Positions 23,974-40,564 of a stretch of DNA of 64,000 bases are shown one piece after another; the stretch's first letter is position 1, and every line of letters starts with the position of its first letter. Below the pieces are notes generated by a model. The model was not told the origin of the DNA, made no database searches, and saw only the letters and a program-made list of their open reading frames with translations. The stretch covers positions 94,492 through 158,491 of the forward strand of contig JBAQNN010000002.1 of assembly GCA_049303835.1 (NCBI GenBank), read 5' to 3'. This stretch comes from Minisyncoccia bacterium. GTDB taxonomy: Bacteria; Patescibacteriota; Minisyncoccia; Phycocordibacterales; UBA9973. The position numbers and the translations under genes are program-made.

Positions 23974-24212
23974 ATATTTGTTTATATCTTATATAAATAA
24001 ATTATTAGTAATATTAGTGTTGTTAATAAGTGGATAATTATTTTTATATTTATTAAATATACTTATTTTTAATTTATAAACTGAACTTAAATCTAATAAC
24101 TTTTTGTCTTATGTTTATGAAAATATTTTTTATTTTTAATTTTTCTTTTTATTCGCGTTAATTAACAGATTTTGTCTGGTTTGTTATATTGTTTTTCCCT
24201 ACTTATAAACAG
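23974..24212. promoter_or_regulatory. candidate oriC part: very AT-rich dnaA-dnaN spacer (DNA unwinding element) with an 8/9 DnaA box at 24030-24038
   Basis: Long runs of TTTTTA/ATTTTT, gtggataat = ATTATCCAC. Confidence 0.5.
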
Positions 24213-25556
24213 CTATTTAAACATAATTCTTATTTGTTCCAACTCTTGCAGCAACGAAGAATCATTTTTTAAGTCAGTTTTTATTTTTAAACAAGAGTGG
24301 ATGACTGTCGTGTGATCCTTTCCCCCCAATTTTTGTCCAATTAGCGGATAAGATACATTAAAGTCTTCTCGGAGTAGATACATGACTACTTGTCTTGCTC
24401 TGACTATTTCCTTTTTTCTTGTTTTCTCATAAATTGAAGATTCTTCCAATTTATAATATTCACTCACTATCTTTACTACATCCTTTATGGCCATGTTTTT
24501 CTTTGGTCTAAGGTTGTTTTTGAGTAGATTTTTTACCTCTACAAGCGTCAATGGTTTGTTTTTTAGTTTATATTGGCAAACAATAAGGTTAAGACTTCCT
24601 TCCAGCTCCCTGATGTTTCCCTGAACTGCCCCCGCCACGTAATCTATCACCTCCTCAGCCAAATCAACATTTAATTCACGGAGTTTAACCTTTAAAATAG
24701 CCAGACGTGACTCATATTCAGGCTCAGATATGTCAACGATCATACCAGCAGCAAAACGAGACTTTAGTCTATCCGCCAGCTCTGGAATGTAGTTTGGGTG
24801 TTTGTCTGAAGAAAAGATAATCTGTTTGTTGTTTTCATAAAAAGTGTTAAATGTGTGAAAAAGTTCTTCTTGAATTTTTTCCATTTTTCCAATGAATTGG
24901 ATATCGTCTATTATTAACAGGTCGTATTTACGATATTTTTCTTTAAAAGAATTTGCTTTGTTGTTTTGGAGTGAATTTACAAAATCTGTGGCAAATTTTT
25001 CCAAGGTCATATAGTGTACCTTTTTATTTGGATATTTTTCTTTTATTGAGTTTCCCACCGCCTGAATCAAGTGTGTTTTTCCTAGTCCAGTACCTCCATA
25101 AATAAAAAATGGGTTATATTTTGTTCCAGGAGAGTCTATTATTGCCTGGGCTGCAGCATAAGCGAGCTCATTGAAAGTTCCGACGATAAACGAATTGAAT
25201 TGATAGCGTGGATTTAGGTTGTCTTCCAGATTTATGTATAAATCTTTTAGGGGTAGTTCTTTTTCTATGGTTATTTCATTTATTGGCGCTGGTTCTTGTT
25301 TTACATTTTCTGTTTTAACAATAGTATATTCTACGGCACGCATATTTTCATAGGCATCGGCAATGGTTTTGGTTATCAATTTGTGATATTTATTGATAAG
25401 CCAGTCGCGGACGAACTCGTTTGGCACCCCAATATAAACAATACCGGTATCTTCTTTTATGATGGATGTGTTTTTAAACCAGGTACTAAAATTTGCTTTT
25501 GATATACCAGATTCTATTTCCATTAGACAACTTTTCCACAACTCTTTTGTATTCAT
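24213..25556 (-). CDS. dnaA: chromosomal replication initiator protein DnaA
   Basis: 447 aa; AAA+ GGTGLGKTHL, DDIQF, C-terminal helix-turn-helix DnaA signature (LIGQKLGGKDHTTVIHS). Confidence 0.95.
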   Translation of the reverse strand: MNTKELWKSCLMEIESGISKANFSTWFKNTSIIKEDTGIVYIGVPNEFVRDWLINKYHKLITKTIADAYENMRAVEYTIVKTENVKQEPAPINEITIEKELPLKDLYINLEDNLNPRYQFNSFIVGTFNELAYAAAQAIIDSPGTKYNPFFIYGGTGLGKTHLIQAVGNSIKEKYPNKKVHYMTLEKFATDFVNSLQNNKANSFKEKYRKYDLLIIDDIQFIGKMEKIQEELFHTFNTFYENNKQIIFSSDKHPNYIPELADRLKSRFAAGMIVDISEPEYESRLAILKVKLRELNVDLAEEVIDYVAGAVQGNIRELEGSLNLIVCQYKLKNKPLTLVEVKNLLKNNLRPKKNMAIKDVVKIVSEYYKLEESSIYEKTRKKEIVRARQVVMYLLREDFNVSYPLIGQKLGGKDHTTVIHSCLKIKTDLKNDSSLLQELEQIRIMFK

Positions 25557-29016: not shown

Positions 29017-29994
29017 TTATCTGCCATCCACTGACCAATGCCAAGGTTCGGATGGTAAGTTAGAAAGACCGTATTTACCGGCATTTGCTTGTAGCCACAC
29101 AAAGCACTTATTATCGCGGGTTTGAATAAATTTTCCATCACACTGTAGATCAAATGCCTTGCCATGGTTGTGATTTGATTGACCTGGAAGAGCTGTGGGT
29201 GGATTACATTTTGCACTTGCGTTTTCGTAGTCTCCATTACAATATTTTATTCTTAATTGTTTCTGTTGTTCTGTAGATCTATATCCCCCACCTGTTATGT
29301 TTAATCCGGCACTTTTTGATGCAACTAGCATGGCGTTAATGTTTGAAACAATATCTTTACATGCAAACATGCTAATTTGGGTTTTTACCACTCCGGCGCT
29401 ACATCCAGATGTAACTCCTGGGGGGTTCCCAGAATCGCTTGCTATTGCGTCTGCTAGTGTTACCTCTACTGTTATTTTTTCTAAACTACTCAGATCAGTC
29501 TTTAGAATATCTGGATTTATTTGGTTTAAGATTGTCCAAGCGCCCAAAGCGAGCACAAGTCCAAAAATAGCGCCAGTGATTCTATGTTTACCGTTTTCTT
29601 TATTAGATATCAGTTCACTAGTCATATACTCCAAACCACCCACCACTATCATTATCACAGCCAACACAGCGCATATACCGATGAAAATACGTATCATTAT
29701 GTTCAAATACTCACCTATTTTGGAATTTTCTCCCTCTGCGCTTGTCGGGTCAAAGGTTTTTAGTTGTCCATCTTCACACCCAGGAGTACCTTTTTCACAA
29801 GGCAGAGGGGCTAAAAAATTATATTTCAAATCATTTTCTTGTGTAGCATTTACGCAGGACACCCCATCAGGAGCAAGTATTTTATCTCCTGTGCATTCAA
29901 CTGCCAAAACAGAGTTGGTGGAGACAAAAAAACTAAAGATTAAAAAAACCAATTGTAATGAGACTATTATCTTTTTAAGCATATCTTTTTTCAT
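29017..29994 (-). CDS. VirB2/TrbC-like pilin region fused to M15 (VanY/LAS) D-Ala-D-Ala peptidase domain
   Basis: Signal peptide, Cys-rich segment, two TM helices with Gly-rich turn (IVVGGLEYM...GAIFGLVLALGAW) as in T4SS pilins. C-terminal zinc-peptidase motif SNHNHGKAFDL plus GGGYRS. Confidence 0.45.
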   Translation of the reverse strand: MKKDMLKKIIVSLQLVFLIFSFFVSTNSVLAVECTGDKILAPDGVSCVNATQENDLKYNFLAPLPCEKGTPGCEDGQLKTFDPTSAEGENSKIGEYLNIMIRIFIGICAVLAVIMIVVGGLEYMTSELISNKENGKHRITGAIFGLVLALGAWTILNQINPDILKTDLSSLEKITVEVTLADAIASDSGNPPGVTSGCSAGVVKTQISMFACKDIVSNINAMLVASKSAGLNITGGGYRSTEQQKQLRIKYCNGDYENASAKCNPPTALPGQSNHNHGKAFDLQCDGKFIQTRDNKCFVWLQANAGKYGLSNLPSEPWHWSVDGR

Positions 29995-30980
29995 TAAAAT
30001 TCTACTCTTATTTCTTTACTTGTACCACCGAAAATTTTAAAGGTATCCTCAATCTCCAATTTTATTATAGATGTTCCCGACTGGCCCGACTGGACTGCGA
30101 GGGGCATAATATTCTTTTTATAAGCTGGCACAGCGACTTGATAATCGTTGATAAACCAATTAAATACGAGAGTCGGTATTCGTATTTCTTTAGGTGAGAT
30201 AAAATAAGGTACAGCCTCTATAATTTCATTTCCTTGTATCTTGTGTCCATCAGACAGAATCGTCTCCCAGACAGTTCCCGTAGTCGGGTTCTTTCTGTAA
30301 AATAGAATTTTTGGTTCTACTGTCCCCACAGTAATATTTGCAGCAGAAGAATATTTTTGATCTGTGGTGGAGGCCGTCACTCCTATAGTGCTAGTATCTT
30401 CCAGGTAATCATCTACATAGCTAAAAGAGTTTTTGCCATAACCGGAGGCATCTTGTTTGTTTGTATAGTCTCTCTTCCAAGCATAAACGAGGTTTTTAGA
30501 ATTTACTGTTTGGGTTCCATTTCTAATTTCTGGCATGGCCACTATTTTTATCTCGCTTCCGGTCGTCGGCATAGCCTTGCCACGATAAAAAGGTGGCACA
30601 TGAGAATCGTTTGCTTGCCAAAGGAGAGTCATAATGGATGGGCGGATCGTTATTCTCTTGTCTATAGTTCCGTCCGGTAGAGAGATAGAAGCTACGATGC
30701 TGGTCTCTTTTCCTGCCTCCGGAGCTGTAAGAGAAAAAGACTTTTTACCGATTCCAGACAAAACATTTTTCCCGTCCACAGACCATACGATGAGGACACT
30801 ATCCAGATTGCTGACATAGCTATTCAAGTTGATATTTACATTTTCATTTGGGCCAGGATTTTCCGGAGAGATGTCCACCAAGATACTACTTGAAGAAACA
30901 GCGGTTACTTCGGAAGGGAGAAAAATCCCTGTCAATAAAAGTGTTACTATTAAATATGAAAGTAAAAATCTTAATTGCAT
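29994..30980 (-). CDS. hypothetical secreted protein (signal peptide, repeated beta-rich domains)
   Basis: N-terminal signal MQLRFLLSYLIVTLLLTGIFLPSEVTA; no family recognised. Confidence 0.45.
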   Translation of the reverse strand: MQLRFLLSYLIVTLLLTGIFLPSEVTAVSSSSILVDISPENPGPNENVNINLNSYVSNLDSVLIVWSVDGKNVLSGIGKKSFSLTAPEAGKETSIVASISLPDGTIDKRITIRPSIMTLLWQANDSHVPPFYRGKAMPTTGSEIKIVAMPEIRNGTQTVNSKNLVYAWKRDYTNKQDASGYGKNSFSYVDDYLEDTSTIGVTASTTDQKYSSAANITVGTVEPKILFYRKNPTTGTVWETILSDGHKIQGNEIIEAVPYFISPKEIRIPTLVFNWFINDYQVAVPAYKKNIMPLAVQSGQSGTSIIKLEIEDTFKIFGGTSKEIRVEF

Positions 30981-31045
30981 AACTCAGCCTAATTATATCA
31001 TATCTGCTTTACAACTTTATAACTTTCAACTTTTGAACTTTATAA

Positions 31046-32893
31046 CTATTGTTTACCCTCAGTTTCCGCTCTCTCCTGCTCCTCCTTGGCTTTTCTGTTT
31101 GAAAGTATTTGGGAAGGGTCGGAAGTGATTATCTGGTCTTCAGTATAAGAAGAAATGACTTTTATGGCTACATGCTTTAGGCCGGCAAAGAATATTCCCT
31201 CCCCGAGGCCTGACTCCAAAAGCAGATATTTTTCTTCATCCGTCAGGTTGAAGGTTTTTTGTAAAATATCTATAGTGGTCGGTGATTGTTTAAGGAGAAG
31301 TTGAATAGAAGAGTTTGTAATGATGGGGACACCATAAGGAGATTTCATAAAGTCGGCGGCGTCTTGGGTGATGGTGGAAAGACCGAGATAATATTTTCTA
31401 CCTCTTTTGGCGATAGAGTATAAGAATGAAGCGGTGTCTTCAGATTTCATCATCCACCAAGCCTCATCTACTACCAAGAGGCGCTTTTTCAAATTTTTTC
31501 GTACGGTATTCCAGATATAATGCATGATGATATACATGGCGACGGGTTTTAACTCGTCTTCCATGTCGCGGACGGAAAATACTACGAATTTTTTATTGAT
31601 ATCCACATTGGACGGTCTGTTTAAGAATGTCGCCCAAGAACCCCTCGTATATTTGGCTAGTCTGGTGACGATTGAATCACTTCCATCCATCCCTCCGAGC
31701 ACCATTTCAAAATCTGACAGAAGAGGAGGTTCAATGTTTGAGAAATCAGATTCAGGAGTGATATCTTTCATCGCATAAGTTTCGGAAATAGCTCGGTCTA
31801 CCATTGAATCTTCTTCAGGGGTGAGTCCGCCTAGCATCAATCTGAAAAGCCCTACCAAGTTTATGATATTTGAACGGAGGACATCTTCGGCTGTTTCGCC
31901 TTCGTGAGGAATAGGTAAATCAAAAGGATTGATGTGGTGATCGGAAGAAAGAGAAATATTGAAATATCTTCCACCGACCGCCTCTGACAAGAACTCGTAT
32001 TCCCTTTCCGGATCTATCACTATGACATCAACATCAAACATTAAAGATCTCAAAATTTCTAGCTTAGTGGCATACGATTTTCCGGAGCCGGACTTGGCAA
32101 AGGTCACGGAGTTGTAATTCTCTAGTGAAAATCTATCAAAGATGACTAGGCTGGAATTGTGCCTGTTGATGCCGTAAAGTATTCCTTTGTTGGAAGTCAG
32201 GTCAAAAGAAATAAATGGGAATACACTACTAAGTGGTTCAGAATTCAACTTCTGATGAATACCAAGTATGTCTGTATTTATGGGTATGACGCTCTTAAAA
32301 CCGTCTTCTTGTTGGAAGAGAGCCGGTTTGATATAGATGAGTTTTGATTCAAGGATTGATTTTATCTCATTTTCTATTTTGAAAAGTTCCAACTCGTTGT
32401 CGGCATAAATGGTGATGTAAATACCCACATCAAACATTTTTTCTTGCGCTTGGATCAGATTATTGCGCAGGCCCTCTAGGTCTTGGTAGGCAGTATCAAG
32501 CATAGGGTCGCGCACCATACCCTTACTCTCTCGTACACTTATCTGACTCTGCACCTCGGCGACTTTTTTCTGAAATTGTCTCAAGACCAGAGAAGTGTCT
32601 ATCGGATGAATAAAAATTGAAATATCAAAAACTTTATCCAGATTGATTATAGGAGAGAACCAATTGTCTGTCAGAAATCTAGGATAGGAAATGATGAAAA
32701 AAGTACGAGCGATTTTATCTCCCAAGCTTATGGATTTAGACGATATTTTCAGAGCTGAAGGAGCGATGACATCTTGGAGCTCCAGGGTGGCGGATTGGTA
32801 GATTTCTTCCGGCATCACTGCCAAGACGGAAGCTCTCACTTCCTTTTCCTCCCCTCCTTTTTGTCCACCTAATAATTTTTTTAAAAAGTCCAT
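31046..32893 (-). CDS. virB4: VirB4/TraC-family type IV secretion ATPase (C-terminal 615-aa portion)
   Basis: Walker A TFAKSGSGKSY, Walker B LLVVDEAWWMM, VirB4-type N-flank ...LGDKIARTFFIISYP... Confidence 0.8.
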   Translation of the reverse strand: MDFLKKLLGGQKGGEEKEVRASVLAVMPEEIYQSATLELQDVIAPSALKISSKSISLGDKIARTFFIISYPRFLTDNWFSPIINLDKVFDISIFIHPIDTSLVLRQFQKKVAEVQSQISVRESKGMVRDPMLDTAYQDLEGLRNNLIQAQEKMFDVGIYITIYADNELELFKIENEIKSILESKLIYIKPALFQQEDGFKSVIPINTDILGIHQKLNSEPLSSVFPFISFDLTSNKGILYGINRHNSSLVIFDRFSLENYNSVTFAKSGSGKSYATKLEILRSLMFDVDVIVIDPEREYEFLSEAVGGRYFNISLSSDHHINPFDLPIPHEGETAEDVLRSNIINLVGLFRLMLGGLTPEEDSMVDRAISETYAMKDITPESDFSNIEPPLLSDFEMVLGGMDGSDSIVTRLAKYTRGSWATFLNRPSNVDINKKFVVFSVRDMEDELKPVAMYIIMHYIWNTVRKNLKKRLLVVDEAWWMMKSEDTASFLYSIAKRGRKYYLGLSTITQDAADFMKSPYGVPIITNSSIQLLLKQSPTTIDILQKTFNLTDEEKYLLLESGLGEGIFFAGLKHVAIKVISSYTEDQIITSDPSQILSNRKAKEEQERAETEGKQ

Positions 32894-32975
32894 AATTGTA
32901 TTTAGGCTTTAGCTTTTAGGCTCTAGGCTCTAGCTTTTGAGTTTGCTAATGCCTAAGGCCTAGTTGCCTAGCGCC
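32894..32975. repeat. heptamer-repeat palindromic element A ([T/C][T/C]TAGGC arrays inverted against GCCTA[A/G] arrays)
   Basis: tttaggctttagcttttaggctctaggctctagc...gcctaaggcctagttgcctagcgcc; separates the two VirB4 ORFs. Confidence 0.7.
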
Positions 32976-33614
32976 CTACTCTATTTTAATCTTACCCTCC
33001 AATTCTCCGGGGTTGAAAACTTTATAAAATACTTCCACTACTTCTTCGGTATTCAGCTGGGCCGAATTTATTCCACAACGAGACAATCCTTGCTGGATGA
33101 CAGCTACCCTCTCTTCTAGTTGAGATCTCTTCTCTTCAAAATCTATCTGTTTTGCGGCTCGCACTTCTTCTGAATTCTTTTTGGAAAATAGCTTTCCCAA
33201 TATCCCGGAATCTGATTTTAAAGTTGTACGTGAATATGGTATTACAATAAAGAAGTTTTTTGTCATGATACTGACAGATTCAGTAAAGCTTCTTATAAAC
33301 TCTATATATTCCCTAGTTTGCAACTTGATCAACGGCTCATTTTGCACTTTTACTCTGTTTTCTAAAAGGAGTAAATAAGGTCTGATGTCCAGCCTTCTGG
33401 ATTGGACTGATATCTGTACCGGAAAATCCAAGGTGTTTAAAAAATTTTGAAATTGAAGAATGGTCGCATGTTGTTCATCGGAAGATTTCAAGGATAGGTT
33501 GACCGAGTTTGCGAGTACGATGGCTCGGAGCTCACCTTCTTTTAGCACGATGATGCCATCGCGTATCTCTTTGATTGGTATAAATTCTTGTGTTGCTTTT
33601 GCTTTTAATGCCAT
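32976..33614 (-). CDS. probable VirB4 N-terminal domain encoded as a separate 212-aa ORF
   Basis: N-terminus TQEFIPIKEIRDGIIVLKEGELRAIV...SSDEQ resembles the start of Gram-positive PrgJ/TcpF-type VirB4. 212+615 aa approximates full-length VirB4. Confidence 0.45.
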   Translation of the reverse strand: MALKAKATQEFIPIKEIRDGIIVLKEGELRAIVLANSVNLSLKSSDEQHATILQFQNFLNTLDFPVQISVQSRRLDIRPYLLLLENRVKVQNEPLIKLQTREYIEFIRSFTESVSIMTKNFFIVIPYSRTTLKSDSGILGKLFSKKNSEEVRAAKQIDFEEKRSQLEERVAVIQQGLSRCGINSAQLNTEEVVEVFYKVFNPGELEGKIKIE

Positions 33615-33701
33615 AAATTTTTTCTAGGGCTTTAGGCTCTAGGCGTTAGGCTTTAGCTTTTGTTTCGCTAGAGCCTAGTGCCTAAGGCCTAGCTGCCTGC
33701 A
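33615..33701. repeat. heptamer-repeat palindromic element B (long imperfect hairpin, ~26 bp stem with G-T wobble positions)
   Basis: ctagggctttaggctctaggcgttaggctttagc-ttttgtttc-gctagagcctagtgcctaaggcctagctgcctgca; right arm overlaps last codons of the upstream gene. Confidence 0.7.
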
Positions 33702-34141
33702 TTTTTCTTTTTACTCAAATCAAGCACGTCCAAGCTCCAGGCCAAATCTCGCAACCTACTTCCATCCAATTTTGAACTGACATTTGGCAGTACTTCATTT
33801 TTATTTTCATCCATGTTTGTAGTTTGCGATTTATTATTTGCTACCCTACCGGTCTTCTTCTTCCAAATATAAAGTTTGTTTTGAGAAAAATATTTAAACC
33901 CTGCTTCAATCATGTTTATAAAAGGCTTATTGTTTGGTTTATAGAAAGTAAGAGCTAAAGAAAACCCGGCGATAATCAAAATAGGGATGGCGCTAAAGAC
34001 GAGCCCTAATAATTTATAAAGCACAAAACACAAACCTGCTCCGCCGGCCAAATAAGCAAACTCCCTAAAAGTAAAAGGGCCGAATATTTTATCTTCTATT
34101 TCTAAAAATTGTGGAACCTTGAATTGCATAAATACAGGCAC
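33689..34141 (-). CDS. VirB3/PrgI-like small T4SS membrane protein
   Basis: 150 aa; N-terminal EDKIFGPFTFREFAYLAGGAG followed by two TM helices, adjacent to VirB4. GTG start with an ATG 4 codons in. Confidence 0.45.
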   Translation of the reverse strand: MPVFMQFKVPQFLEIEDKIFGPFTFREFAYLAGGAGLCFVLYKLLGLVFSAIPILIIAGFSLALTFYKPNNKPFINMIEAGFKYFSQNKLYIWKKKTGRVANNKSQTTNMDENKNEVLPNVSSKLDGSRLRDLAWSLDVLDLSKKKNAGS

Positions 34142-34166
34142 TAGGCTTTAGGCGCTAGGCTCTAGC
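34141..34166. repeat. heptamer-repeat element C (CTAGGCT TTAGGCG CTAGGCT CTAGC), single-orientation copy
   Basis: Overlaps the stop region of the four-helix-bundle gene (encodes its C-terminal ...QLEPSA) and the start of the VirB3-like gene. Confidence 0.65.
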
Positions 34167-34507
34167 TGAGAAATTAGTTTATTCAACATTTTCATAATTT
34201 CTTCTAATAAAGAACCCACTTTATTATAATCTAATTTTGCAGTTTTGGGTAATTTTTTAGATATTATTAGCTGAGTTTCTAGCTCCGCACCAGAAGCAAA
34301 GGCAATAAGTAAGAATCTTTTGAATTCTGGAATTCCTCCTCGCATTTTCCCTTCTGCAATATTAGAAGGTATGGATACTGCCGCCCTACGAATTTGTGAG
34401 GTTAAACCATAAATTTCTTCCTTCGAAAATTTGTCTGTGAGTTCATAAACTGCTATTACAAGCTCTATCGATTTTTGCCACACGACTAAATCTCTATATG
34501 TTTTCAT
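34148..34507 (-). CDS. four-helix-bundle protein (23S rRNA intervening-sequence protein / Avd-like family, PF05635-type)
   Basis: 119 aa; YRDLVVWQKSIELVIAVYELT...FSKEEIYGLTSQIRRAAVSIPSNIAEG is the signature N-terminal block of this family. Confidence 0.7.
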   Translation of the reverse strand: MKTYRDLVVWQKSIELVIAVYELTDKFSKEEIYGLTSQIRRAAVSIPSNIAEGKMRGGIPEFKRFLLIAFASGAELETQLIISKKLPKTAKLDYNKVGSLLEEIMKMLNKLISQLEPSA

Positions 34508-34517
34508 GTGTTTTTTA

Positions 34518-34542
34518 CTAGCGCCTAATGCCTAGAGCCTAG
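34518..34542. repeat. heptamer-repeat element D (CTAGCGCCTAATGCCTAGAGCCTAG), inverted relative to element C
   Basis: Reverse complement CTAGGCTCTAGGCATTAGGCGCTAG pairs with element C across the 119-aa gene. Confidence 0.65.
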
Positions 34543-34548
34543 AAAATA

Positions 34549-35100
34549 TTACTCCGGTATCTCCCTATACGGATCAATTTTAGGAACATCTGCTCTATTT
34601 CCACTGGTCTTTTCTTCTTTAGTAATATTTTCTATTGAGTGGTCCGTCTCTACAACAGGATTTTTTACAAGGCCGGATAGTTTTTGGGCCAAAATGGGAT
34701 GTGGAGAATCTATCTCCAGTTTTTCCGGCACAATCTCAATCCCAGCGGATTTTAGTATCTCTGTGTCGTTCTCCTCTTCTTTTATCTTTGATGAATCTAT
34801 TAATTTTTCTCGGATTTCCTTCAATATTTTTTCATTAACGTCATTTACTATGGTGTGGATTTTTTCCTCCGGCAGTTTTAGACTGTTTCTGACCGACTCT
34901 TCAAATTTATCCGGATGAGTAAACCCAAACATCACCATGTGTGTCTCAAGTGACAATTGACCCATCTGTTCTACGTTTAGATTTTCTTTTTGACCTATTT
35001 CTATAATGTTATCGTCCACATTGGCCGCCATGATTGACCATTTTAGGTCTTCCGGCAAGCTCTCAAATTTTTTTTGTATTTCTTCTAATGATATTTCCAT
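34549..35100 (-). CDS. hypothetical acidic protein (183 aa)
   Basis: No recognisable family; part of the T4SS-like operon. Confidence 0.4.
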   Translation of the reverse strand: MEISLEEIQKKFESLPEDLKWSIMAANVDDNIIEIGQKENLNVEQMGQLSLETHMVMFGFTHPDKFEESVRNSLKLPEEKIHTIVNDVNEKILKEIREKLIDSSKIKEEENDTEILKSAGIEIVPEKLEIDSPHPILAQKLSGLVKNPVVETDHSIENITKEEKTSGNRADVPKIDPYREIPE

Positions 35101-35127
35101 AATATTTTTTATTAGAGCTGATAATTA

Positions 35128-38127
35128 CTAGTGTCCTCCGTGTCCCGCATCGTGTCCAGCATCATGTCCCCCACCAGAAGGCGCTTCCGGAGGATGTTCG
35201 TGTTTTGGTTCGGCAGATGCCTTTGGTGTGGCGTGTCCTCCGCCTCCCTTTCCTTCTTTCTTGTGGCCACCTTCTTTGTCGTGCTCTTCCTTATGGAACA
35301 CATCTTTATCTTTTCCTAGATCATATTTTTCTTTTTCAAGTCTCCTCATTTGATCTGGTGCGGTTTTTAGCCTATTTAATTGACCCAGTTCTGTTGTGGC
35401 TTTAAACGCAGCATTCTTTATTGCAGTCATTCTAGGATCGTTATCAGGAACGTTCTGCTTGACAAGCTCTTGAAGTTTTAAATCTTCCCTCTTCATAGTA
35501 AACGTGAGTTGGGCTATTCTCTTTTCTACCCCTTTCAGATTGACTTCATCTTTACCGTTTTTATTTTTTTCAACCAGTTTAGTGATTTCTCCCGAAATGT
35601 CGTCTTTTACCTCCATATTTTTTCCTTCTTCCATTATTGTAGTTAAATTTTCTAACGCCACAGTATTCTCTGTCAACCTGTCTTCTATCTTTTGTAGTTT
35701 TTTATGCCCTTTTTCAATATCAGTGGCGAATGATCCCTGGGCCGCTTCTCCCGTGCCTTTTACTCCCGTAGCTTCCTTGAATTTTCTGGTCACTCCAAAC
35801 GCTGCTGCTCCGGCTGTTGTGACCTTTGCCGCCGTAGCTATACCCGCTATACCCGCGATACCACCGATTCCAGCAAGTGCTGCTGCCACCCCAGCTTTCA
35901 TTACAACCTTCTGGGTTCTTCCTTTGTTTATATCGTCTATTGTGGGTTCTTTGTGTGCTTCTTTAAACATTCTCTCAAATCTTTCTTTGTCGAATCCACT
36001 TCCTTCTCTTGTTTGTGCTTCTTTTTCTGCATCCTTTTTTTCTTCAGCCCAGTTCTTATATTCTTTTGAATCTTTGTAATTGTTTTGGTCAACCATTCCA
36101 CCACTTGCTTTCAACAAAGAACGCGCGAGAGAAGCCGTTAATCCATTTTGTCCGAAGTTATTTATAAATTCTTTCATTCTGTCGTGATTGAGTTCATCCG
36201 CCGATTTGTATCCCTTTGGTCGCTCACCGTTTTTCTTCTTAAATTCTTCCTCACTAATTCCATTCTTCTTTGCTATCGCAAGATTACTGTCGTATTCATC
36301 TTGTTTTTTCTTTGACCATGCTTTTACTTCGTCACCACTCATACTTGTTTTATAGAGCTTTGATTCTTCTTCTAATTTCTTCTTTTGCTTTTCTTTTCGT
36401 CCTTGGTATCCTCCCTCATTTGCAGAACCCAAATTTATGCCGGTTCCGCTTACAAATTTCTTTCCAAGACCAGTGGCCCGAATATCGAAGGATGCCTTTG
36501 ATCCATAATCTGCTGTTTTTAGCATCTTTCTTGCTGCCCAACCAGTGAACCCCCTTTCTTTATTGTTTGCGGCGGTTTTTAGACCCTCACTGCTTGCAAC
36601 TTTACTCGATATCGCGCCTATTGCTTGTGTTGCCATAAGCGATGTACCTCCTGTAGCAGCACCCAAGGCGAGTCCCCCAATTAGTTTTGCACCAGTCATC
36701 AATTTTTCTCCCAAGGCGCCGGAACCCTTTTTGGCATATTCTGTAGCTTTGAGTAAGAGAATTAGAATTACTAAGGCAGGAATTATGATGAGCAAGATAG
36801 TTTCTATGAAGCTCGCGTTTGATTTAGAAATAATTTGGTCAAATATCTTTGCTTGAATCAGCATAAATATAAAATACATAAAGAACATGAAAATCGGCGC
36901 CATAAAAGCGGTTTTAAGCAAACGTTTGAACCAAGCATCCCAACCCAAATATTCAACACTACTTAAAATTGGAATGGTTGAAGACATAAAAGCAAAAGGA
37001 GAGAATATAATTAGAACAAAAAGTTCAATCATACGGCCCACAAAGCTGATGCCGGCAACAAAAAAACAATATGCGGCAAAAAACATGAGCACTCCAGCGA
37101 TGATTGTGATTCCAATCAACATACCCCCAGAAACTTCAGTTGAAGCTTTAACTCCTCCTATTTCTTGGGTTTTAAGTTTTGCAAAAAAATCTGGGGTTAA
37201 TAAACTAGTTGGATTGAATGCGTTTACCATACCACCAGCGACATCCTTTTCTCCATTTGCCGTGTTTTGATATTCCCGTACTTTACCATCTGCGTTTACT
37301 GTGTTGACTTCCATTTTATTGTAAAAAACCAAAGCCAAAACATTAGAAGTATCAATAATTACTTGAGTAAAGAACATAGAAAAGTTTATCAAGAGAGCAA
37401 TAACGATGACTTTCACTATCATTTTTTTTGCATCGTGTCCCGCTAAATCTAAAATTATTTTTATAGCGATAAAAAGGAGAATGAGTATAAAGAAAATATT
37501 TGAAAGATCTCGAACTACACCCCAAGCAGTAGGGATGAATGTAGAATTAGCAAACAATTTGCCACTAAGTGTGATGAATATTAAAACATTAAAAAAATAA
37601 GCTGATAACCACAACAAGAAAGAAGGAATAACATAAAAAAGACCATAAGATGCCTGCACAAAACATCCGGGATAAAAGGAAGAGTCACTTCCTCCTAGCC
37701 CGGTTACTCCAAATCCGCAAATATTTTTTCCAATTTCATTCTCAAATGCAGTTTTTGGGCTATTTGTATTTTGTACATCTGTTCCATCTGCCGCTGCATC
37801 AGATGCTTTTGGTCTCCACTGCCCCCCTCCAGCTTCACAAACACTTTTTGTCTTTTCAGTTACTACACTATTTGTGGTACAAATTCCGGTTACTTCGTCT
37901 TTATTGTCTGGAACCCATCTTTTAGTAAAACCCTCAAGTAGTTCAAGATCCGTACATTTTTGTTGTGTTTCAAACTTTTCTCTTCGTATTATATCGCCAT
38001 TCCTATTTGAAACTTCACAGGTTCCTGTTCCTGTTTGTGCCTCTACTTTCTCAGCCATCCCAAATACCCCGCCCAGTACGATGAGTATCAATAAATATGG
38101 TATTATTTTTTTTACTCTATTTTTCAT
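35128..38127 (-). CDS. VirB6/TrbL-like polytopic membrane protein with Cys-rich N-terminal ectodomain and long C-terminal coiled-coil/low-complexity tail ending in Gly/His repeats
   Basis: Signal/TM, then 6-7 TM helices in the middle, charged coiled-coil C-half, tail GGGGHATPK...GHDAGHDAGHGGH. Architecture of Gram-positive VirB6 analogues. Confidence 0.45.
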   Translation of the reverse strand: MKNRVKKIIPYLLILIVLGGVFGMAEKVEAQTGTGTCEVSNRNGDIIRREKFETQQKCTDLELLEGFTKRWVPDNKDEVTGICTTNSVVTEKTKSVCEAGGGQWRPKASDAAADGTDVQNTNSPKTAFENEIGKNICGFGVTGLGGSDSSFYPGCFVQASYGLFYVIPSFLLWLSAYFFNVLIFITLSGKLFANSTFIPTAWGVVRDLSNIFFILILLFIAIKIILDLAGHDAKKMIVKVIVIALLINFSMFFTQVIIDTSNVLALVFYNKMEVNTVNADGKVREYQNTANGEKDVAGGMVNAFNPTSLLTPDFFAKLKTQEIGGVKASTEVSGGMLIGITIIAGVLMFFAAYCFFVAGISFVGRMIELFVLIIFSPFAFMSSTIPILSSVEYLGWDAWFKRLLKTAFMAPIFMFFMYFIFMLIQAKIFDQIISKSNASFIETILLIIIPALVILILLLKATEYAKKGSGALGEKLMTGAKLIGGLALGAATGGTSLMATQAIGAISSKVASSEGLKTAANNKERGFTGWAARKMLKTADYGSKASFDIRATGLGKKFVSGTGINLGSANEGGYQGRKEKQKKKLEEESKLYKTSMSGDEVKAWSKKKQDEYDSNLAIAKKNGISEEEFKKKNGERPKGYKSADELNHDRMKEFINNFGQNGLTASLARSLLKASGGMVDQNNYKDSKEYKNWAEEKKDAEKEAQTREGSGFDKERFERMFKEAHKEPTIDDINKGRTQKVVMKAGVAAALAGIGGIAGIAGIATAAKVTTAGAAAFGVTRKFKEATGVKGTGEAAQGSFATDIEKGHKKLQKIEDRLTENTVALENLTTIMEEGKNMEVKDDISGEITKLVEKNKNGKDEVNLKGVEKRIAQLTFTMKREDLKLQELVKQNVPDNDPRMTAIKNAAFKATTELGQLNRLKTAPDQMRRLEKEKYDLGKDKDVFHKEEHDKEGGHKKEGKGGGGHATPKASAEPKHEHPPEAPSGGGHDAGHDAGHGGH

Positions 38128-38176
38128 CTCTTTTACTATTCCAGCAACCTCTTAACTTAAAAAACCTTAAACATAT

Positions 38177-40564
38177 TTAAAACGTATCCTCTCCCGCATG
38201 TGTATAGTCCGTCTTATTAGATCTAAAGACAGAGTTGCAATCTATGTCTGCACTGATTCTTTTATCTGTTTCACCTCCACCCAACCAGCTACAAATTCCA
38301 GTACAGGTAATATCTCCGTAAATATTTTTTGCATTGACTATAGGAAGATCTTTGTAGCCTTCTTCTCCCTCGTCATTGTTTTCGTTTCTGAAGGTGAAAG
38401 ATTGCCCTTGGTTAGAGGAATCTGATCTTATTATCTCTCCATGGCTATATCCAGAAACTATCGGAATGCTACAGAACTTTGCAAGTTCCGTCATTTGTCC
38501 ATGTTGTTTGCTTTCTCTTCCTCCAATTTTGTCCCAGTCAGCATTTTCTCTCTGTCCTTCACATTCTGTAGCCATATTCTTTATACTATTCCTTTTGTCG
38601 TTTAGTGAGTCCACATCTGATCTAGCGTTTTCTATTGTTATAGAAGATGAAACTGAAGATTTTATTGAATTATATTGTTTCTTTAACAGAACCATAGTTT
38701 TTTCCTGGGCAGAACCAGCTTCTGGTTGTGTCGCTATCGCCGCTAAGCCTGTTTTTTGTGCCGCTTTTTCGTTTCCTGCTATCGCCTTTAACCTTGCAAG
38801 CGCCTGAGCTTTTTCTCTTTTTATTCTTATAGCTTCGTCCATTTTTTCTGGAAAACCATCCATATTACTTATCTCCTCTAAATACAATATTGAGTTAGGA
38901 AGTTCATTTATCATTCTCATTATCACCCAATCCTTAAAGGAATCTACTGCAAACTTTAATTCTCTAACAGCATCAGTCGCTGCTTTTATTTTTAGATCAT
39001 CATCCCCAGCCTGATCTTTTTGTAGTTTATTTACAATTCTTCCCTGTTCTTCTTTTAATCTTTTTTCCCAGTTTTTGTCTGGTCCAGGAATACACTGGTC
39101 TAGTTTTTCAGCAAGTTGAGAGATCCCAAGACTTTCTGGATTAATATTATTTATTAGTTTCGGTATTATTTCTAGAAGAATTATTTCAGTTTCTGTGTTT
39201 GCTATGTCCCCAGGTATATAGGTACCATTACCAGTATTTCCTATTTCCTCGATCGTTTCTTCAGCACCTGTTTCTGGATTGATTTTTGTAACAATAGTTT
39301 TTCCATGCAATTGTTTTTTAAATTTATCTAATATGATTTCTTCGTCAGGCCCGGAGTCCCAGGACGAGTTAGCTCCTCCCTCATCAGGGCTTCCAAGAGT
39401 TAGCCCATTATAGCTCCAATCGTCCACTACAGGCTCAGGGTTTTTCTTGCTTGCTAGGCTATTTAGCCCGTCTCCTATGAATTTATTTAATAAAGCATCA
39501 AAAATGGTTGAAAGACTATTCCCCATAGCTGCTCCGAGTTCACTTTGGCGAAAGTTTGATCCTAGGGCATTTGTTATCTGGCTTGATACGACAGCGCCAG
39601 GAGTTGTACTTACTAATCCTCCTGGACAAGTATTTTCTTCTTGCCAATCTTGTTTTTCAGTTGCAACCCCATTTTGATAATCCATGTTGTAATTATCACA
39701 CCGCGTCTTTTCTTCTGGTGTTGGTTGTCCGTCGATGTTAAACTGACAAAAACTCTCATCATATTTTTGTGATGGCTTGAAGCTCGGTCTCTGAAATTCG
39801 TTCACTCCATTATTGTAGGATGGATTTGATGGACAAGTTTGTGGAGACAAGAACCCCATTCCCTGTTGTAGGGTTGTTTGTACCTTCTGTGCAGCTGTTT
39901 GAGTGGTTCCTTGTACTCGTCTAGCGAGTTCTTCTGTAGCGAGCATTTGGAAGCCTAGATAATTGTTTTGTGGATATTGAGTGTTTATGAGGAAAGCATC
40001 CCAGCCCCCTACATTGAAATTATTTTGATAGTTGCGAAGTTGTACTGGGTCAGTCATGACCTTACTCAAAGAATATGCTGCGTTATCACTGAGTTGTCTT
40101 TTATATGCGTTTATTGTGTTTAAAGCAAAATCTTTACCAAAAGGATATTTTAGATTGTCATAACCGAATGTGTCTACTAAATTTTTTACTTCTGATTTAG
40201 CGATGTCTTCAAAAAATGATTGTGGGTTTTCTAAAAAGAGAGGGCTTCCATGAAAACCCGAATTTATCCAGTTTACAGTACTTTTTGTTATCTCTTGTAG
40301 GGCTTTTCGGGCTACGGCTTGCAAAACTTGCTTCAAGATTTCTTGATACCATGTTTGTACAGCCTTTGAGGCAGTTATAGCGTTGGAGGCATTTCCTTGT
40401 ATTCCCAACGCAACCTTTATTCCACTCCATATCCCCCCCAAGATATCCATTACAGTAACTGCCTCAGCCTTCCTTGGTTCAATAAATAAAAAAGAGGGGA
40501 CAAGAATCATAATTAGCAGGAAAAGAGAGATTAACTTTTGAATTTTTGGGTTCTTAAAAATCAT
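38177..40564 (-). CDS. hypothetical large membrane-anchored surface protein (795 aa)
   Basis: N-terminal TM/signal (LISLFLLIMILVPSFLF), Gln/Asn-rich and Cys-containing ectodomain with coiled-coil segments. Confidence 0.4.
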   Translation of the reverse strand: MIFKNPKIQKLISLFLLIMILVPSFLFIEPRKAEAVTVMDILGGIWSGIKVALGIQGNASNAITASKAVQTWYQEILKQVLQAVARKALQEITKSTVNWINSGFHGSPLFLENPQSFFEDIAKSEVKNLVDTFGYDNLKYPFGKDFALNTINAYKRQLSDNAAYSLSKVMTDPVQLRNYQNNFNVGGWDAFLINTQYPQNNYLGFQMLATEELARRVQGTTQTAAQKVQTTLQQGMGFLSPQTCPSNPSYNNGVNEFQRPSFKPSQKYDESFCQFNIDGQPTPEEKTRCDNYNMDYQNGVATEKQDWQEENTCPGGLVSTTPGAVVSSQITNALGSNFRQSELGAAMGNSLSTIFDALLNKFIGDGLNSLASKKNPEPVVDDWSYNGLTLGSPDEGGANSSWDSGPDEEIILDKFKKQLHGKTIVTKINPETGAEETIEEIGNTGNGTYIPGDIANTETEIILLEIIPKLINNINPESLGISQLAEKLDQCIPGPDKNWEKRLKEEQGRIVNKLQKDQAGDDDLKIKAATDAVRELKFAVDSFKDWVIMRMINELPNSILYLEEISNMDGFPEKMDEAIRIKREKAQALARLKAIAGNEKAAQKTGLAAIATQPEAGSAQEKTMVLLKKQYNSIKSSVSSSITIENARSDVDSLNDKRNSIKNMATECEGQRENADWDKIGGRESKQHGQMTELAKFCSIPIVSGYSHGEIIRSDSSNQGQSFTFRNENNDEGEEGYKDLPIVNAKNIYGDITCTGICSWLGGGETDKRISADIDCNSVFRSNKTDYTHAGEDTF

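What the first reader, a model, noticed from the sequence alone, without database searches (positions are those of the whole stretch)
31046..33614. VirB4 ATPase appears split into two ORFs exactly at a palindromic repeat element
The 212-aa ORF resembles the N-terminal domain of Gram-positive-type VirB4 (PrgJ/TcpF-like start ...TQEFIPIKEIRDGII...SSDEQ...). The 615-aa ORF carries the rest, including the LGDKIARTFFIISYP block, Walker A and Walker B. Together they reach about 827 aa, a normal VirB4 length.

The 82-bp element A lies between them, with a stop codon on one side and a fresh ATG on the other. This could be a functional two-polypeptide VirB4, a disrupted pseudogene, or an assembly or sequencing artefact.
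Basis: inference. Interest (0 to 1): 0.55.

Follow-up and report, generated by a model that had tools for sequence, protein, structure and literature searches.

The report
Known two-gene VirB4 plus IVS-like hairpin
The "split" secretion ATPase is the normal, conserved and already published two-gene form (TrsD plus VirB4) of ultra-small Patescibacteria, and the hairpin between the genes arrived later; that hairpin is built like the intervening sequences known from ribosomal RNA genes.

Summary
On the minus strand a 212-aa ORF (32976-33614) and a 615-aa ORF (31046-32893) are separated by an 82-bp hairpin (32894-32975). Together they cover one VirB4 collinearly.

The split is neither damage nor artefact.
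- All species-representative relatives with a readable junction (about 77 of 80 loci) have a stop near codon 212 and a separate downstream virB4. About two thirds have gaps of 28 nt or less and no hairpin.
- dN/dS is about 0.04 for the 212-aa ORF and 0.01 for the 615-aa ORF.
- A separately held assembly (Logan, SRR28062879) matches the window exactly.
- The 212-aa protein is the TrsD family. PMC12102498 (2025) reports TrsD as a remote homologue of the VirB4 N-terminus, found next to virB4 in 1,664 Patescibacteria loci. Firmicutes megaplasmids show the same prgI/N-part/ATPase order.

So the split did not arise at the palindrome. The hairpin entered an existing intergenic gap.

The hairpin is the less ordinary part.
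- Its arms are tandem units of about 7 nt ([C/T]TAGGCN).
- Two related copies lie within 1.7 kb. One has a PF05635 four-helix-bundle ("23S rRNA IVS protein") gene as its loop, the architecture of classical rRNA intervening sequences.
- Element A is 89-90% identical across species whose synonymous sites are saturated.

RNase III processing of the operon mRNA is inferred, not shown.

The parts
32976..33614 (-). trsD-like gene: 212-aa stand-alone N-terminal module of VirB4 (Pfam PF26593 TraC-like; TrsD/TraD family)
   Evidence: ORF. NCBIfam hits to TrsD 15-200/201 and to the N-terminal positions of VirB4 models. The top 120 of >7,800 homologues are all 211-216 aa. The fold matches TrwK/VirB4 only. 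dN/dS 0.04.
31046..32893 (-). virB4 proper: 615-aa remainder of VirB4 (second half of the N-terminal region plus the P-loop ATPase domain)
   Evidence: Pfam P-loop_TraG, AAA_10 and DUF87. 4AG5 VirB4 CTD E 1e-37 over residues 234-590. CD1110 family 182-733/752, 364 bits against a cutoff of 325. 55% identity to residues 230-790 of fused P0262. dN/dS 0.009.
32894..32975 (-). Element A: ORF-less hairpin with arms made of tandem ~7-nt units ([C/T]TAGGCN / NGCCTA[A/G]) and stops in all three frames
   Evidence: Sequence; fold -31.4 kcal/mol, z -2.6. Orthologous copies in L010 and L021 are 89-90% identical, while third codon positions of the flanking genes are 48-53% identical. No Rfam family. Not terminator-like.
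33615..33692 (-). Element B: second hairpin of the same family, between prgI and trsD; its first unit supplies the TAG stop of prgI
   Evidence: (family D4); fold -36.1 kcal/mol, z -3.4. 70% identical to element A. Orthologous copies in L016 and L021.
33689..34141 (-). prgI (VirB3-like) gene; the likely true start is the ATG at 34126, which is conserved in relatives
   Evidence: Pfam PrgI 1.2e-8. Sequence. The same MQFKVPQF start is visible downstream of the IVP genes of relatives.
34148..34507 (-). 119-aa four-helix-bundle gene (PF05635 '23S rRNA intervening sequence protein', TIGR02436) sitting as the loop of a third hairpin
   Evidence: Pfam 6e-36 at 123 bits. NCBIfam TIGR02436 at 118 bits.
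34518..34548 (-). 5' arm (on the mRNA strand) of the IVP-bearing element: CTAGGCT CTAGGCA TTAGGCG CTAG
   Evidence: Inverted repeat I9: 23 nt, 91% complementary to 34136-34158, 359 nt apart. Best period 7.
34134..34167 (-). 3' arm of the IVP-bearing element; overlaps the last codons and stop of the IVP gene
   Evidence: duplex -54.9 kcal/mol against a shuffle mean of -32.0, sd 3.8.
29017..38127 (-). Surrounding co-directional T4SS-type cluster: 999-aa polytopic VirB6-like candidate, conserved 183-aa gene, IVP, prgI, trsD, virB4, conserved 328-aa gene, and a pilin-VanY fusion. dnaA and dnaN lie 3.5-6 kb away.
   Evidence: The same gene order is seen in relatives. T4SS location near dnaA is reported in PMC12102498.

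Best explanation
The two ORFs are not a broken gene. They are the standard two-gene form of VirB4 in Patescibacteria: trsD, a stand-alone N-terminal module of about 210 aa, followed directly by virB4, which carries the rest including the ATPase. The gene order prgI(VirB3)-trsD-virB4 mirrors the domain order of VirB3-VirB4 fusion proteins described in other systems. By inference from R388 structures, TrsD supplies the membrane-proximal, VirB3-binding part of the ATPase assembly as a separate chain.

In most relatives the two genes abut or overlap (-4 to +28 nt), the kind of spacing usually associated with translational coupling (inference). In this genome and a minority of relatives, a hairpin was inserted into that gap.

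The hairpin belongs to the intervening-sequence (IVS) type of element. It has inverted arms of tandem units of about 7 nt that form a stem of 22-30 pairs. The loop is either short or carries a PF05635 four-helix-bundle gene, as in the copy 1.2 kb upstream.

Shown here: the homology, collinearity and conservation of the split; purifying selection on both ORFs; secondary insertion of the hairpin; the shared architecture with IVS elements; and strong sequence conservation of the hairpin.

Inferred only: that the stem is cut by RNase III in the operon transcript, as demonstrated for the Coxiella 23S IVS, so that the trsD and virB4 cistrons are uncoupled or differentially stabilised.
For: Split is conserved.
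- The top 120 of >7,800 homologues of the N ORF are all 211-216 aa.
- Of the best 150 clusters at 50% identity, only one is about 800 aa.
- Among 80 GTDB species loci, every readable junction has a stop near codon 212 followed by a separate virB4. 52 of 78 gaps are 28 nt or less, with a mode of 1-4 nt.

Collinearity. NCBIfam model ranges and alignment to fused P0262: residues 1-213 and 230-790.

Fold. The TrsD model matches only TrwK/VirB4 significantly.

Selection. dN/dS is 0.04 for trsD and 0.009 for virB4 against L002.

Not an artefact. The Logan assembly L001 is identical to window 32423-34115.

Literature. TrsD is described as a remote homologue of the VirB4 N-terminus, with 2,272 homologues in Patescibacteria, 1,664 of them next to virB4, and it is listed as essential in Ca. 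Southlakia epibionticum ML1 (PMC12102498).

Firmicutes. Megaplasmids carry the order prgI / N-part homologue / DUF87 ATPase.

Hairpin is secondary. L002, L004, L006 and L008 have 4-28-nt gaps without it.

IVS type.
- The IVP gene is flanked by the same arms.
- All 14 IVP genes in these T4SS loci (the window's plus 13 in relatives) have inverted tandem-repeat arms.
- Period 7 is the best period in 31 of 35 arms, while only 1 of 131 control windows is periodic.
- The Coxiella 23S IVS has tandem heptamers upstream of S23p and an RNase III cut in the stem (PMC4990558).
- An Azospirillum 23S IVS and IVP genes in cyanobacterial operons have arms of the same style.

Constraint. Element A is 89-90% identical to the L010 and L021 copies, against 48-53% at third codon positions of the flanking genes.
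Against: No expression, protein or RNA-processing data exist for this organism.

TrsD scores far below the NCBIfam TrsD cutoff (27 against 200 bits), and the local Pfam copy gave no hit. Family placement therefore rests on weak sequence matches, the fold, a precomputed PF26593 hit and gene context.

Folding energies show no sense-strand advantage: the sense strand is more stable in only 6 of 19 hairpins. An RNA-level role is therefore unproven, and a DNA-level or selfish explanation remains open.

Half-elements and a patchy distribution suggest frequent decay. The high cross-species identity of element A could reflect recent recombinational transfer rather than selection.
Confidence: 0.85

Rival explanations
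1. Pseudogene: a once-fused virB4 was recently disrupted in this genome by insertion of the 82-bp palindrome, leaving two non-functional fragments.
For: The element carries stops in all three frames and sits exactly at the junction. A fused 797-aa homologue exists in Ca. Colwellbacteria.
Against: The same stop and restart is present in about 77 other species, most without any element. dN/dS is 0.04 and 0.009. The C-ORF start, M[DE]F[LF]KKL, is conserved in relatives. TrsD is a recognised stand-alone family (PMC12102498).
Confidence: 0.02
2. Assembly or sequencing artefact: the palindrome, or the stop codon, was introduced by mis-assembly at a repeat.
For: Palindromic repeats with three local copies can confuse assemblers. 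Reads could not be inspected.
Against: A Logan contig from SRR28062879 matches the window exactly over 1,693 bp spanning both hairpins; whether it derives from the same reads as the window is not known. Orthologous elements at the same two gaps occur in other species' MAGs: A and B in L016 and L021, A only in L010.
Confidence: 0.01
3. Ancient causation: an IVS-type element, with stops in every frame, originally split a fused virB4 in an ancestor. The element was later lost in most lineages, leaving tight gaps, and persists or re-invades in some.
For: Such elements repeatedly occupy exactly this gap. About 20-25 of 78 species have hairpins or half-arms there, and L046 and L055 carry a whole IVP gene there. 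Elements supply stop codons to upstream genes, as for prgI here and trsD in L016. The 27-28-nt gap of L002 and L004 resembles a decayed right arm by eye.
Against: The split also exists in Firmicutes megaplasmids, where the junctions were not examined for such elements, and in the pGO1 subclass (PMC12102498). The modal gap is 1-4 nt. The arm sequences in this gap differ between lineages, which indicates independent insertions into an existing gap.
Confidence: 0.07
4. The hairpin is a selfish, MITE-like passenger with no role in the operon. Its presence between trsD and virB4 only reflects a permissive intergenic site.
For: Distribution is patchy, with half-elements that look like decay. No sense/antisense folding asymmetry. 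TAGGC-heptamer hairpins occur in unrelated contigs of 31-66% GC. IVSs are regarded as selfish elements (PMC4990558).
Against: Element A is 89-90% identical between species whose synonymous sites are near saturation (48-53% third-position identity; dS > 1.5), and it is more like its orthologues than like its paralogue 640 bp away, at 70%. All three copies in 64 kb lie within one operon.
Confidence: 0.3

Closest known systems
TrsD/TraD + TrsE/TraE (VirB4) gene pair of the pGO1/pSK41 subclass of MPF_FATA T4SS, and the TrsD-VirB4 pair reported across Patescibacteria (PMC12102498)
   Same: A protein of about 200 aa homologous to the VirB4 N-terminus is encoded immediately upstream of a shortened VirB4 ATPase and downstream of a PrgI/VirB3-like gene. 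The locus is chromosomal, lacks a relaxase and lies near dnaA.
   Different: Nothing essential. In this genome the normally tight trsD|virB4 junction is widened to 82 bp by a hairpin. The score against the NCBIfam TrsD model is far below its cutoff (27 against 200 bits).
Full-length monoderm VirB4 ATPases (CD1110/Tn916-type family NF045971; the fused 797-aa Ca. Colwellbacteria protein P0262)
   Same: Collinear coverage: N ORF = residues 1-213 and C ORF = residues 230-790 of P0262, with 36% and 55% identity. Same Walker motifs.
   Different: Here there are two polypeptides. The linker is replaced by a stop, a spacer and a new start that adds about 38 non-homologous N-terminal residues to the C part.
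23S rRNA intervening sequences carrying an S23p/PF05635 ORF (Leptospira, Coxiella burnetii; also the Azospirillum lipoferum example found here)
   Same: Terminal inverted repeats form a stem of roughly 22-30 bp. The arms are built of tandem heptamers (Coxiella: GACAGAT). A PF05635 ORF sits in the loop, and ORF-less variants exist (PMC4990558).
   Different: The elements sit between protein-coding genes of an operon, not in helix 9, 25 or 45 of 23S rRNA. Element A has no ORF. RNase III excision is untested here.
REP/REPIN-RAYT systems and MITEs
   Same: Short intergenic palindromes occur in several copies, with a small gene flanked by the same inverted repeats, which suggests an 'autonomous versus non-autonomous' relationship.
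   Different: The flanked gene is a four-helix bundle rather than a RAYT/IS200-type or other transposase. There is no GTAG REP signature. No target-site duplications were identified (not examined systematically).

Membership tests
VirB4 (T4SS ATPase; TIGR00929 / NF045971 CD1110 family) | C-terminal P-loop NTPase domain with Walker A and Walker B, homologous to solved VirB4 CTDs | tested here: met
   GSGKS and LLVVDEAW in the translation. 4AG5 E 1.2e-37 and TrwK 2e-8. Pfam P-loop_TraG 7.5e-25.
VirB4 (T4SS ATPase; TIGR00929 / NF045971 CD1110 family) | Whole-protein score above the curated family cutoff | tested here: met
   The C ORF scores 364.5 bits against NF045971, cutoff 325, although it covers only positions 182-733/752. 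It is below cutoff for TIGR00929 (109 against 643).
VirB4 (T4SS ATPase; TIGR00929 / NF045971 CD1110 family) | N-terminal domain and ATPase domain on one polypeptide of about 800 aa | tested here: not met
   There are two ORFs in different frames with stops in all frames between them. The missing N-terminal positions are supplied by the separate 212-aa ORF.
VirB4 (T4SS ATPase; TIGR00929 / NF045971 CD1110 family) | Encoded with other T4SS inner-membrane components (VirB3/PrgI, VirB6-like, pilin) | tested here: met
   PrgI is immediately upstream. A T4SS_pilin/TrbC domain protein lies downstream. The 999-aa polytopic protein gives only a weak hit to an ICE transmembrane family.
VirB4 (T4SS ATPase; TIGR00929 / NF045971 CD1110 family) | ATPase activity and hexameric assembly at the channel base | not testable with these tools
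   Requires biochemistry or cryo-EM.
TrsD/TraD family (NF041427; Pfam PF26593 TraC-like) | Stand-alone protein of about 200 aa aligning end to end with the family model | tested here: inconclusive
   It aligns over 15-200/201 at E 2.8e-6, but at 27.3 bits against a cutoff of 200. Precomputed Pfam PF26593 is assigned to it and to all listed homologues. The local Pfam copy gave no hit.
TrsD/TraD family (NF041427; Pfam PF26593 TraC-like) | Homology to the N-terminal part of VirB4 | tested here: met
   NCBIfam VirB4 models match over N-terminal positions only. 36% identity to residues 1-213 of fused P0262. Foldseek's top 14 hits are all TrwK/VirB4.
TrsD/TraD family (NF041427; Pfam PF26593 TraC-like) | Gene located immediately upstream of virB4 | tested here: met
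   True in the window and in every related locus with a readable junction except the rearranged L058.
rRNA-type intervening sequence (IVS) elements | Terminal inverted repeats forming a stable stem of about 20-30 bp | tested here: met
   Element A -31.4 kcal/mol and element B -36.1 kcal/mol. IVP arms are 23 nt and 91% complementary.
rRNA-type intervening sequence (IVS) elements | Arms composed of tandem heptameric units | tested here: met
   Best period is 7 in 31 of 35 arms flanking PF05635 genes, against 1 of 131 periodic control windows. Coxiella heptamers are described in PMC4990558.
rRNA-type intervening sequence (IVS) elements | PF05635 (S23p) ORF in the loop | tested here: not met
   Met for the 34134-34548 element but not for element A or B, whose loops are 9-10 nt. 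ORF-less rRNA IVSs do exist (PMC4990558; PMC11270868).
rRNA-type intervening sequence (IVS) elements | Inserted in a 23S (or 16S) rRNA helix | tested here: not met
   All three copies lie between protein-coding genes, and there is no rRNA in the window.
rRNA-type intervening sequence (IVS) elements | Excised from the transcript by RNase III | not testable with these tools
   Needs RACE, RNA-seq or an in vitro assay. No RNase III signature motif was found in the 64-kb window, but the rest of the genome was not available.
Intrinsic (Rho-independent) terminator | GC-rich stem followed by a U-tract | tested here: not met
   No minus-strand terminator-like site was called in 30900-38300. The stem is followed by AAATACAATT.

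The most novel reading that the evidence does not exclude
PF05635 four-helix-bundle genes and their inverted arms of 7-8-nt tandem repeats may form one widespread module that is not restricted to rRNA. Under this reading the module colonises the gaps between functionally coupled genes: T4SS genes in Patescibacteria, and cas, RNR, parAB and ABC-exporter genes in cyanobacteria. It would leave ORF-less hairpins such as element A, and it would be maintained by selection, perhaps as an RNase III-dependent site that uncouples neighbouring cistrons. The repeat unit appears to co-vary with the protein subfamily, which would fit sequence-specific recognition of the arrays by the pentameric protein. If so, this would assign a role to a large family of unknown function and possibly to cyanobacterial heptamer (STRR-like) repeats; the STRR link rests on my own knowledge of that literature.
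Probability: 0.35. Interest if true: 0.65.

Novelty: already known. Interest (0 to 1): 0.3.

Why it matters
For the split itself the value is in annotation. In Patescibacteria and in some Firmicutes elements, a roughly 210-aa "hypothetical protein" upstream of a short VirB4 is the missing N-terminal module. It is not a sign of gene decay, and the T4SS here should be scored as intact. That T4SS is reported as essential for epibiotic growth in the one Patescibacteria strain tested (PMC12102498).

The hairpin matters more. It shows that IVS-type stem-loops, known from 23S rRNA, also sit inside protein-coding operons, with and without their four-helix-bundle gene. One such copy is conserved across species far beyond neutral expectation. 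That makes the long-unknown function of the PF05635 family and of IVS elements testable in an mRNA context.

Tried and rejected
- Sequence search of the 212-aa ORF against the PDB gave nothing even at E <= 10. The local Pfam-A scan also gave nothing. Identity was established instead through NCBIfam, the fold and a fused homologue.
- Rfam found no family for the hairpins; the only hits were chance-level miRNA and snoRNA matches at E about 0.7-0.9.
- The terminator scan found no minus-strand terminator at the hairpins, so the terminator reading was dropped.
- Comparing sense and antisense RNA folding of 19 T4SS-operon hairpins, to look for RNA-level selection through G-U pairs, showed no asymmetry: 6 of 19 favoured the sense strand, Wilcoxon p = 0.12. 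This is inconclusive and cannot separate RNA-level from DNA-level roles.
Many are plain tandem heptamer arrays, or single matches that could be chance, in GC-rich contigs. About 20 were clear hairpins, and only 2 had an adjacent IVP gene (L204, L125). One pair of arms flanks a MaoC-like ORF (L105). The TAGGC hairpin is therefore not specific to the T4SS or to IVP genes.
- Literature string searches for the arm motifs found nothing relevant.
- The NJ tree of TrsD+VirB4 is too coarse to decide between vertical inheritance with losses and lateral transfer of element A.
- A formal covariation analysis of the stems was not attempted, because the repetitive arms make the alignment register ambiguous.
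- REP/RAYT membership was rejected: there is no transposase-like gene and no GTAG motif.
Full report
**1. The observation**

The minus strand carries a 212-aa ORF (32976-33614) and a 615-aa ORF (31046-32893). They are separated by 82 bp (32894-32975), bounded by a TAG stop and an ATG start. The two ORFs are in different frames. Read directly, the spacer has stop codons in all three frames, so no readthrough or frameshift could join them.

The spacer folds as an imperfect hairpin: -31.4 kcal/mol, z = -2.6. It is one of three related copies that all lie within 1.7 kb:
- a second hairpin at 33615-33692 between prgI and the 212-aa ORF (-36.1 kcal/mol, z = -3.4);
- a pair of arms at 34518-34548 and 34134-34167 that flank the gene at 34148-34507.

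No further copy was found in the 64-kb window.

**2. What the two ORFs are**

The 615-aa ORF is a VirB4-type ATPase that lacks its N-terminus.
- Pfam gives P-loop_TraG, AAA_10 and DUF87.
- The solved VirB4 C-terminal domain 4AG5 matches at E 1e-37 over residues 234-590.
- It passes the curated cutoff of the CD1110 VirB4 family (364 against 325 bits) but covers only model positions 182-733 of 752. For TIGR00929 it covers positions 269-725 of 792.

The 212-aa ORF fills the missing part.
- It hits the same VirB4 models only at their N-terminal positions (TIGR00929 3-177; CD1110 1-75; Mbov_0397 family 101-237).
- It aligns end to end with the TrsD/TraD family model (15-200 of 201), though far below that model's cutoff.
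- An AlphaFold model built on 25 homologues (pLDDT 81) has significant PDB matches only to TrwK/VirB4 chains of the R388 system. These are the top 14 hits, with probability 0.99-1.00.

A fused 797-aa homologue from Ca. Colwellbacteria (P0262) aligns with the 212-aa ORF over residues 1-213 (36% identity). It aligns with residues 39-598 of the 615-aa ORF over residues 230-790 (55% identity).

**3. The split is old, conserved and functional**

- The 212-aa ORF has more than 7,800 homologues. The best 120 are all 211-216 aa and come from Nomurabacteria, Paceibacterota and Minisyncoccia MAGs.
- In an exhaustive search of 50%-identity representatives, 2,284 clusters match. Of the best 150, only one is of fused length.
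- In 80 species-representative genomes (54-87% identity), every locus with a readable junction has a stop near codon 212 followed by a separate virB4. 52 of 78 gaps are 28 nt or less, with a mode of 1-4 nt and some 4-nt overlaps.
- The start of the downstream protein, M[DE]F[LF]KKL, is conserved in the close relatives examined.
- Against the closest relative, L002, dN/dS is 0.04 for the 212-aa gene and 0.009 for the 615-aa gene. dS is about 1.5-1.8, so the ratios are approximate.
- A separately held assembly (a Logan contig of SRR28062879) is identical to the window over 32423-34115.

Pseudogene and artefact are therefore rejected.

**4. It is already known**

Quinonero-Coronel et al. 2025 (PMC12102498) make these points:
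- it is present in the pGO1 subclass of MPF_FATA;
- it was the most abundant T4SS component they retrieved in Patescibacteria, with 2,272 homologues in 2,221 assemblies, 1,664 of them associated with virB4;
- it is listed as essential in Ca. Southlakia epibionticum ML1.

They also note the location near dnaA. That is true here as well: dnaA lies at 24213-25556 and dnaN at 22876-23973.

Firmicutes megaplasmids carry the same order, PrgI-family gene, N-part homologue, then DUF87 ATPase. Examples are B. thuringiensis Bt407 BTB_502p and C. perfringens pJFP838A.

By inference from the R388 structures, prgI-trsD-virB4 encode as three chains what some systems encode as one VirB3-VirB4 fusion.

**5. 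The palindrome did not make the split**

L002 is the window's nearest relative in a rough NJ tree. It has a 27-nt gap with no hairpin. L004 has 28 nt, and L006 and L008 have 4 nt.

About 25 of 78 species have longer gaps. Most of these are hairpins or half-arms whose repeat unit differs by lineage:
- CTAGGC-type in the window, L010, L016, L021 and L026;
- AAAGTTATAAAGT-type in L015, L025, L034 and L087;
- other unit types in L049, L069 and L084.

In L046 and L055 the gap holds an entire small gene.

The gap is therefore a recurrent landing site in an already split gene pair. An ancient causal role for such an element cannot be strictly excluded. It is unparsimonious, though, because the split also occurs in the pGO1 subclass and on Firmicutes plasmids.

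**6. What the hairpin is**

[quoted passage not shown] Its flanks carry the same [C/T]TAGGCN / NGCCTA[A/G] arms as elements A and B: 23 nt, 91% complementary, 359 nt apart. Elements A and B are thus the ORF-less form of the same structure.

Thirteen relatives carry an IVP gene in the T4SS locus, upstream of prgI or in the trsD|virB4 gap. All are flanked by inverted tandem-repeat arms. The unit sequence tracks the IVP subfamily:
- win-type IVP with TAGGC arms;
- L033 with TAGCT arms;
- L063 and L064 with TTAGT/TAGAT arms;
- L055-type (L004, L026, L027) with AATTACG arms;
- L046-type with ATAAAGT arms.

A win-type IVP with TAGGC arms also occurs in an unrelated contig of 50% GC, L204.

The best repeat period is 7 in 31 of 35 arms. 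Among control windows, only 1 of 131 shows comparable periodicity.

This is the architecture of classical IVS elements. The Coxiella burnetii 23S IVS has a 28-bp terminal stem and three tandem heptamers (GACAGAT) upstream of its S23p ORF. RNase III cuts in the middle of that stem (PMC4990558).

Among plasmid-borne homologues, an Azospirillum copy sits inside 23S rRNA sequence with arms of the same style. I recognised the flanking rRNA sequence by eye. Cyanobacterial and Gemmatirosa copies have 7-8-nt arrays on both sides, inverted in 7 of the 8 examined. The annotated copies are wedged between hlyD-like and ABC-transporter genes, RNR beta and alpha, parA and parB, cas6 and cas4, and cmr2 and cmr3.

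IVP genes inside cas operons and in rRNA insertions of CPR bacteria were already reported. Those papers give no function and do not mention the arms (PMC3936711, PMC11270868).

**7. Is the hairpin under constraint?**

Element A is 89-90% identical to the copies at the same site in L010 and L021. It is only 70% identical to element B, 640 bp away. Between the same genomes, third codon positions of trsD and virB4 are 48-53% identical, and overall DNA identity is 72-79%.

Either the element is under strong purifying selection, or it moved recently between species by recombination through the conserved flanks. The rough tree places carriers next to non-carriers and cannot decide between these.

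Further tests gave the following:
- no sense-strand folding advantage was found;
- no Rfam family matches;
- the hairpins are not terminator-like.

**8. Mechanism, with status**

Shown:
- a two-gene VirB4 under purifying selection;
- a hairpin inserted secondarily;
- IVS-type architecture shared with a neighbouring PF05635-bearing copy;
- unusual sequence conservation of the hairpin.

Inferred:
- TrsD assembles with VirB4 and PrgI as the N-terminal module of the ATPase.
- The hairpin forms in the operon transcript and is an RNase III substrate. Cleavage would separate or differentially stabilise the trsD and virB4 messages, replacing the tight coupling seen in relatives.

Alternative for the hairpin: a selfish palindrome with no operon role (about 0.3).

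**9. Verdict**

The finding is real but ordinary as stated. It is the published TrsD-VirB4 arrangement, so novelty is "already known" and interest is low to moderate.

The lead worth keeping is the IVS-type heptamer-repeat element family that sits inside protein-coding operons.

Noticed in passing
window 34134-34548 (minus strand): A PF05635 four-helix-bundle ('23S rRNA IVS protein') gene sits between a conserved 183-aa T4SS-cluster gene and prgI. It forms the 359-nt loop of a stem whose arms are tandem CTAGGCN heptamers, which is IVS architecture inside an mRNA operon. The last codons and stop of the gene are encoded by the 3' arm.
   Followed up: yes
window 33615-33692: A second hairpin of the same family lies between prgI and trsD, and its first repeat unit provides the TAG stop of prgI. 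In L016 the equivalent element at the trsD|virB4 gap extends trsD to 216 aa and supplies its stop.
   Followed up: partly
L004, L015, L021, L026, L027, L033, L035, L041, L043, L046, L055, L063, L064 (T4SS loci of relatives): IVP genes of at least three subfamilies occupy either the gap upstream of prgI or the trsD|virB4 gap. The sequence of the flanking repeat unit tracks the IVP subfamily (TAGGC, TAGCT, TTAGT, AATTACG, ATAAAGT). This suggests either a co-travelling unit or specific recognition of the repeats by the protein.
   Followed up: partly
L210-L217 (plasmids of Calothrix, Geminocystis, Nostoc, Pseudanabaena, Gemmatirosa, Azospirillum, Picosynechococcus, Leptolyngbya): Four-helix-bundle genes are flanked by 7-8-nt tandem arrays, inverted in 7 of 8 and direct in Pseudanabaena. 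The annotated copies are wedged between partner genes (hlyD-like/ABC exporter, RNR beta/alpha, parA/parB, cas6/cas4, cmr2/cmr3). The Azospirillum copy lies within 23S rRNA sequence. The Nostoc arrays (GTAGGGA/TCCCTAC) resemble cyanobacterial STRR-type heptamer repeats.
   Followed up: partly
L105 2446-3016 (metagenome contig, 62% GC): Near-perfect CTAGGCA x6 and GCCTAGT/GCCTAAT x8 arms flank a segment of about 500 nt that holds a 136-aa MaoC-dehydratase-like ORF rather than an IVP gene. The heptamer arms can therefore bracket other cargo.
   Followed up: no
window 22876-25556 versus 29017-38127: The T4SS-type cluster lies 3.5 kb from dnaA and dnaN, that is, next to the presumed replication origin. 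This matches the arrangement reported for Patescibacteria in PMC12102498.
   Followed up: partly
window 29017-29994 (minus): A 325-aa protein combines a T4SS pilin/TrbC-like domain (residues about 82-158) with a C-terminal VanY D-Ala-D-Ala carboxypeptidase domain. This is a pilin-cell-wall hydrolase fusion at the end of the cluster.
   Followed up: no
window 35128-38127 (minus): A 999-aa polytopic membrane protein is the VirB6-like candidate, on only a weak hit to an ICE transmembrane family. It has a long charged coiled C-terminal half and ends in a Gly/His-rich tail (…GGGGHATPKASAEPKHEHPPEAPSGGGHDAGHDAGHGGH).
   Followed up: no
L032 about 4455-4465; L058: One relative, L032, has an in-frame stop inside the variable linker of trsD (around residue 150), which may be a further split or an error. 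In L058, virB4 is inverted upstream of trsD and has a very different identity level (78% against 59%), which suggests a rearrangement or a chimeric contig.
   Followed up: no
window 3904-3991 and 6824-6905: Two perfect inverted repeats (22-nt and 21-nt arms, 100% complementary, 44-nt and 40-nt loops) are unrelated in sequence to the TAGGC elements.
   Followed up: no
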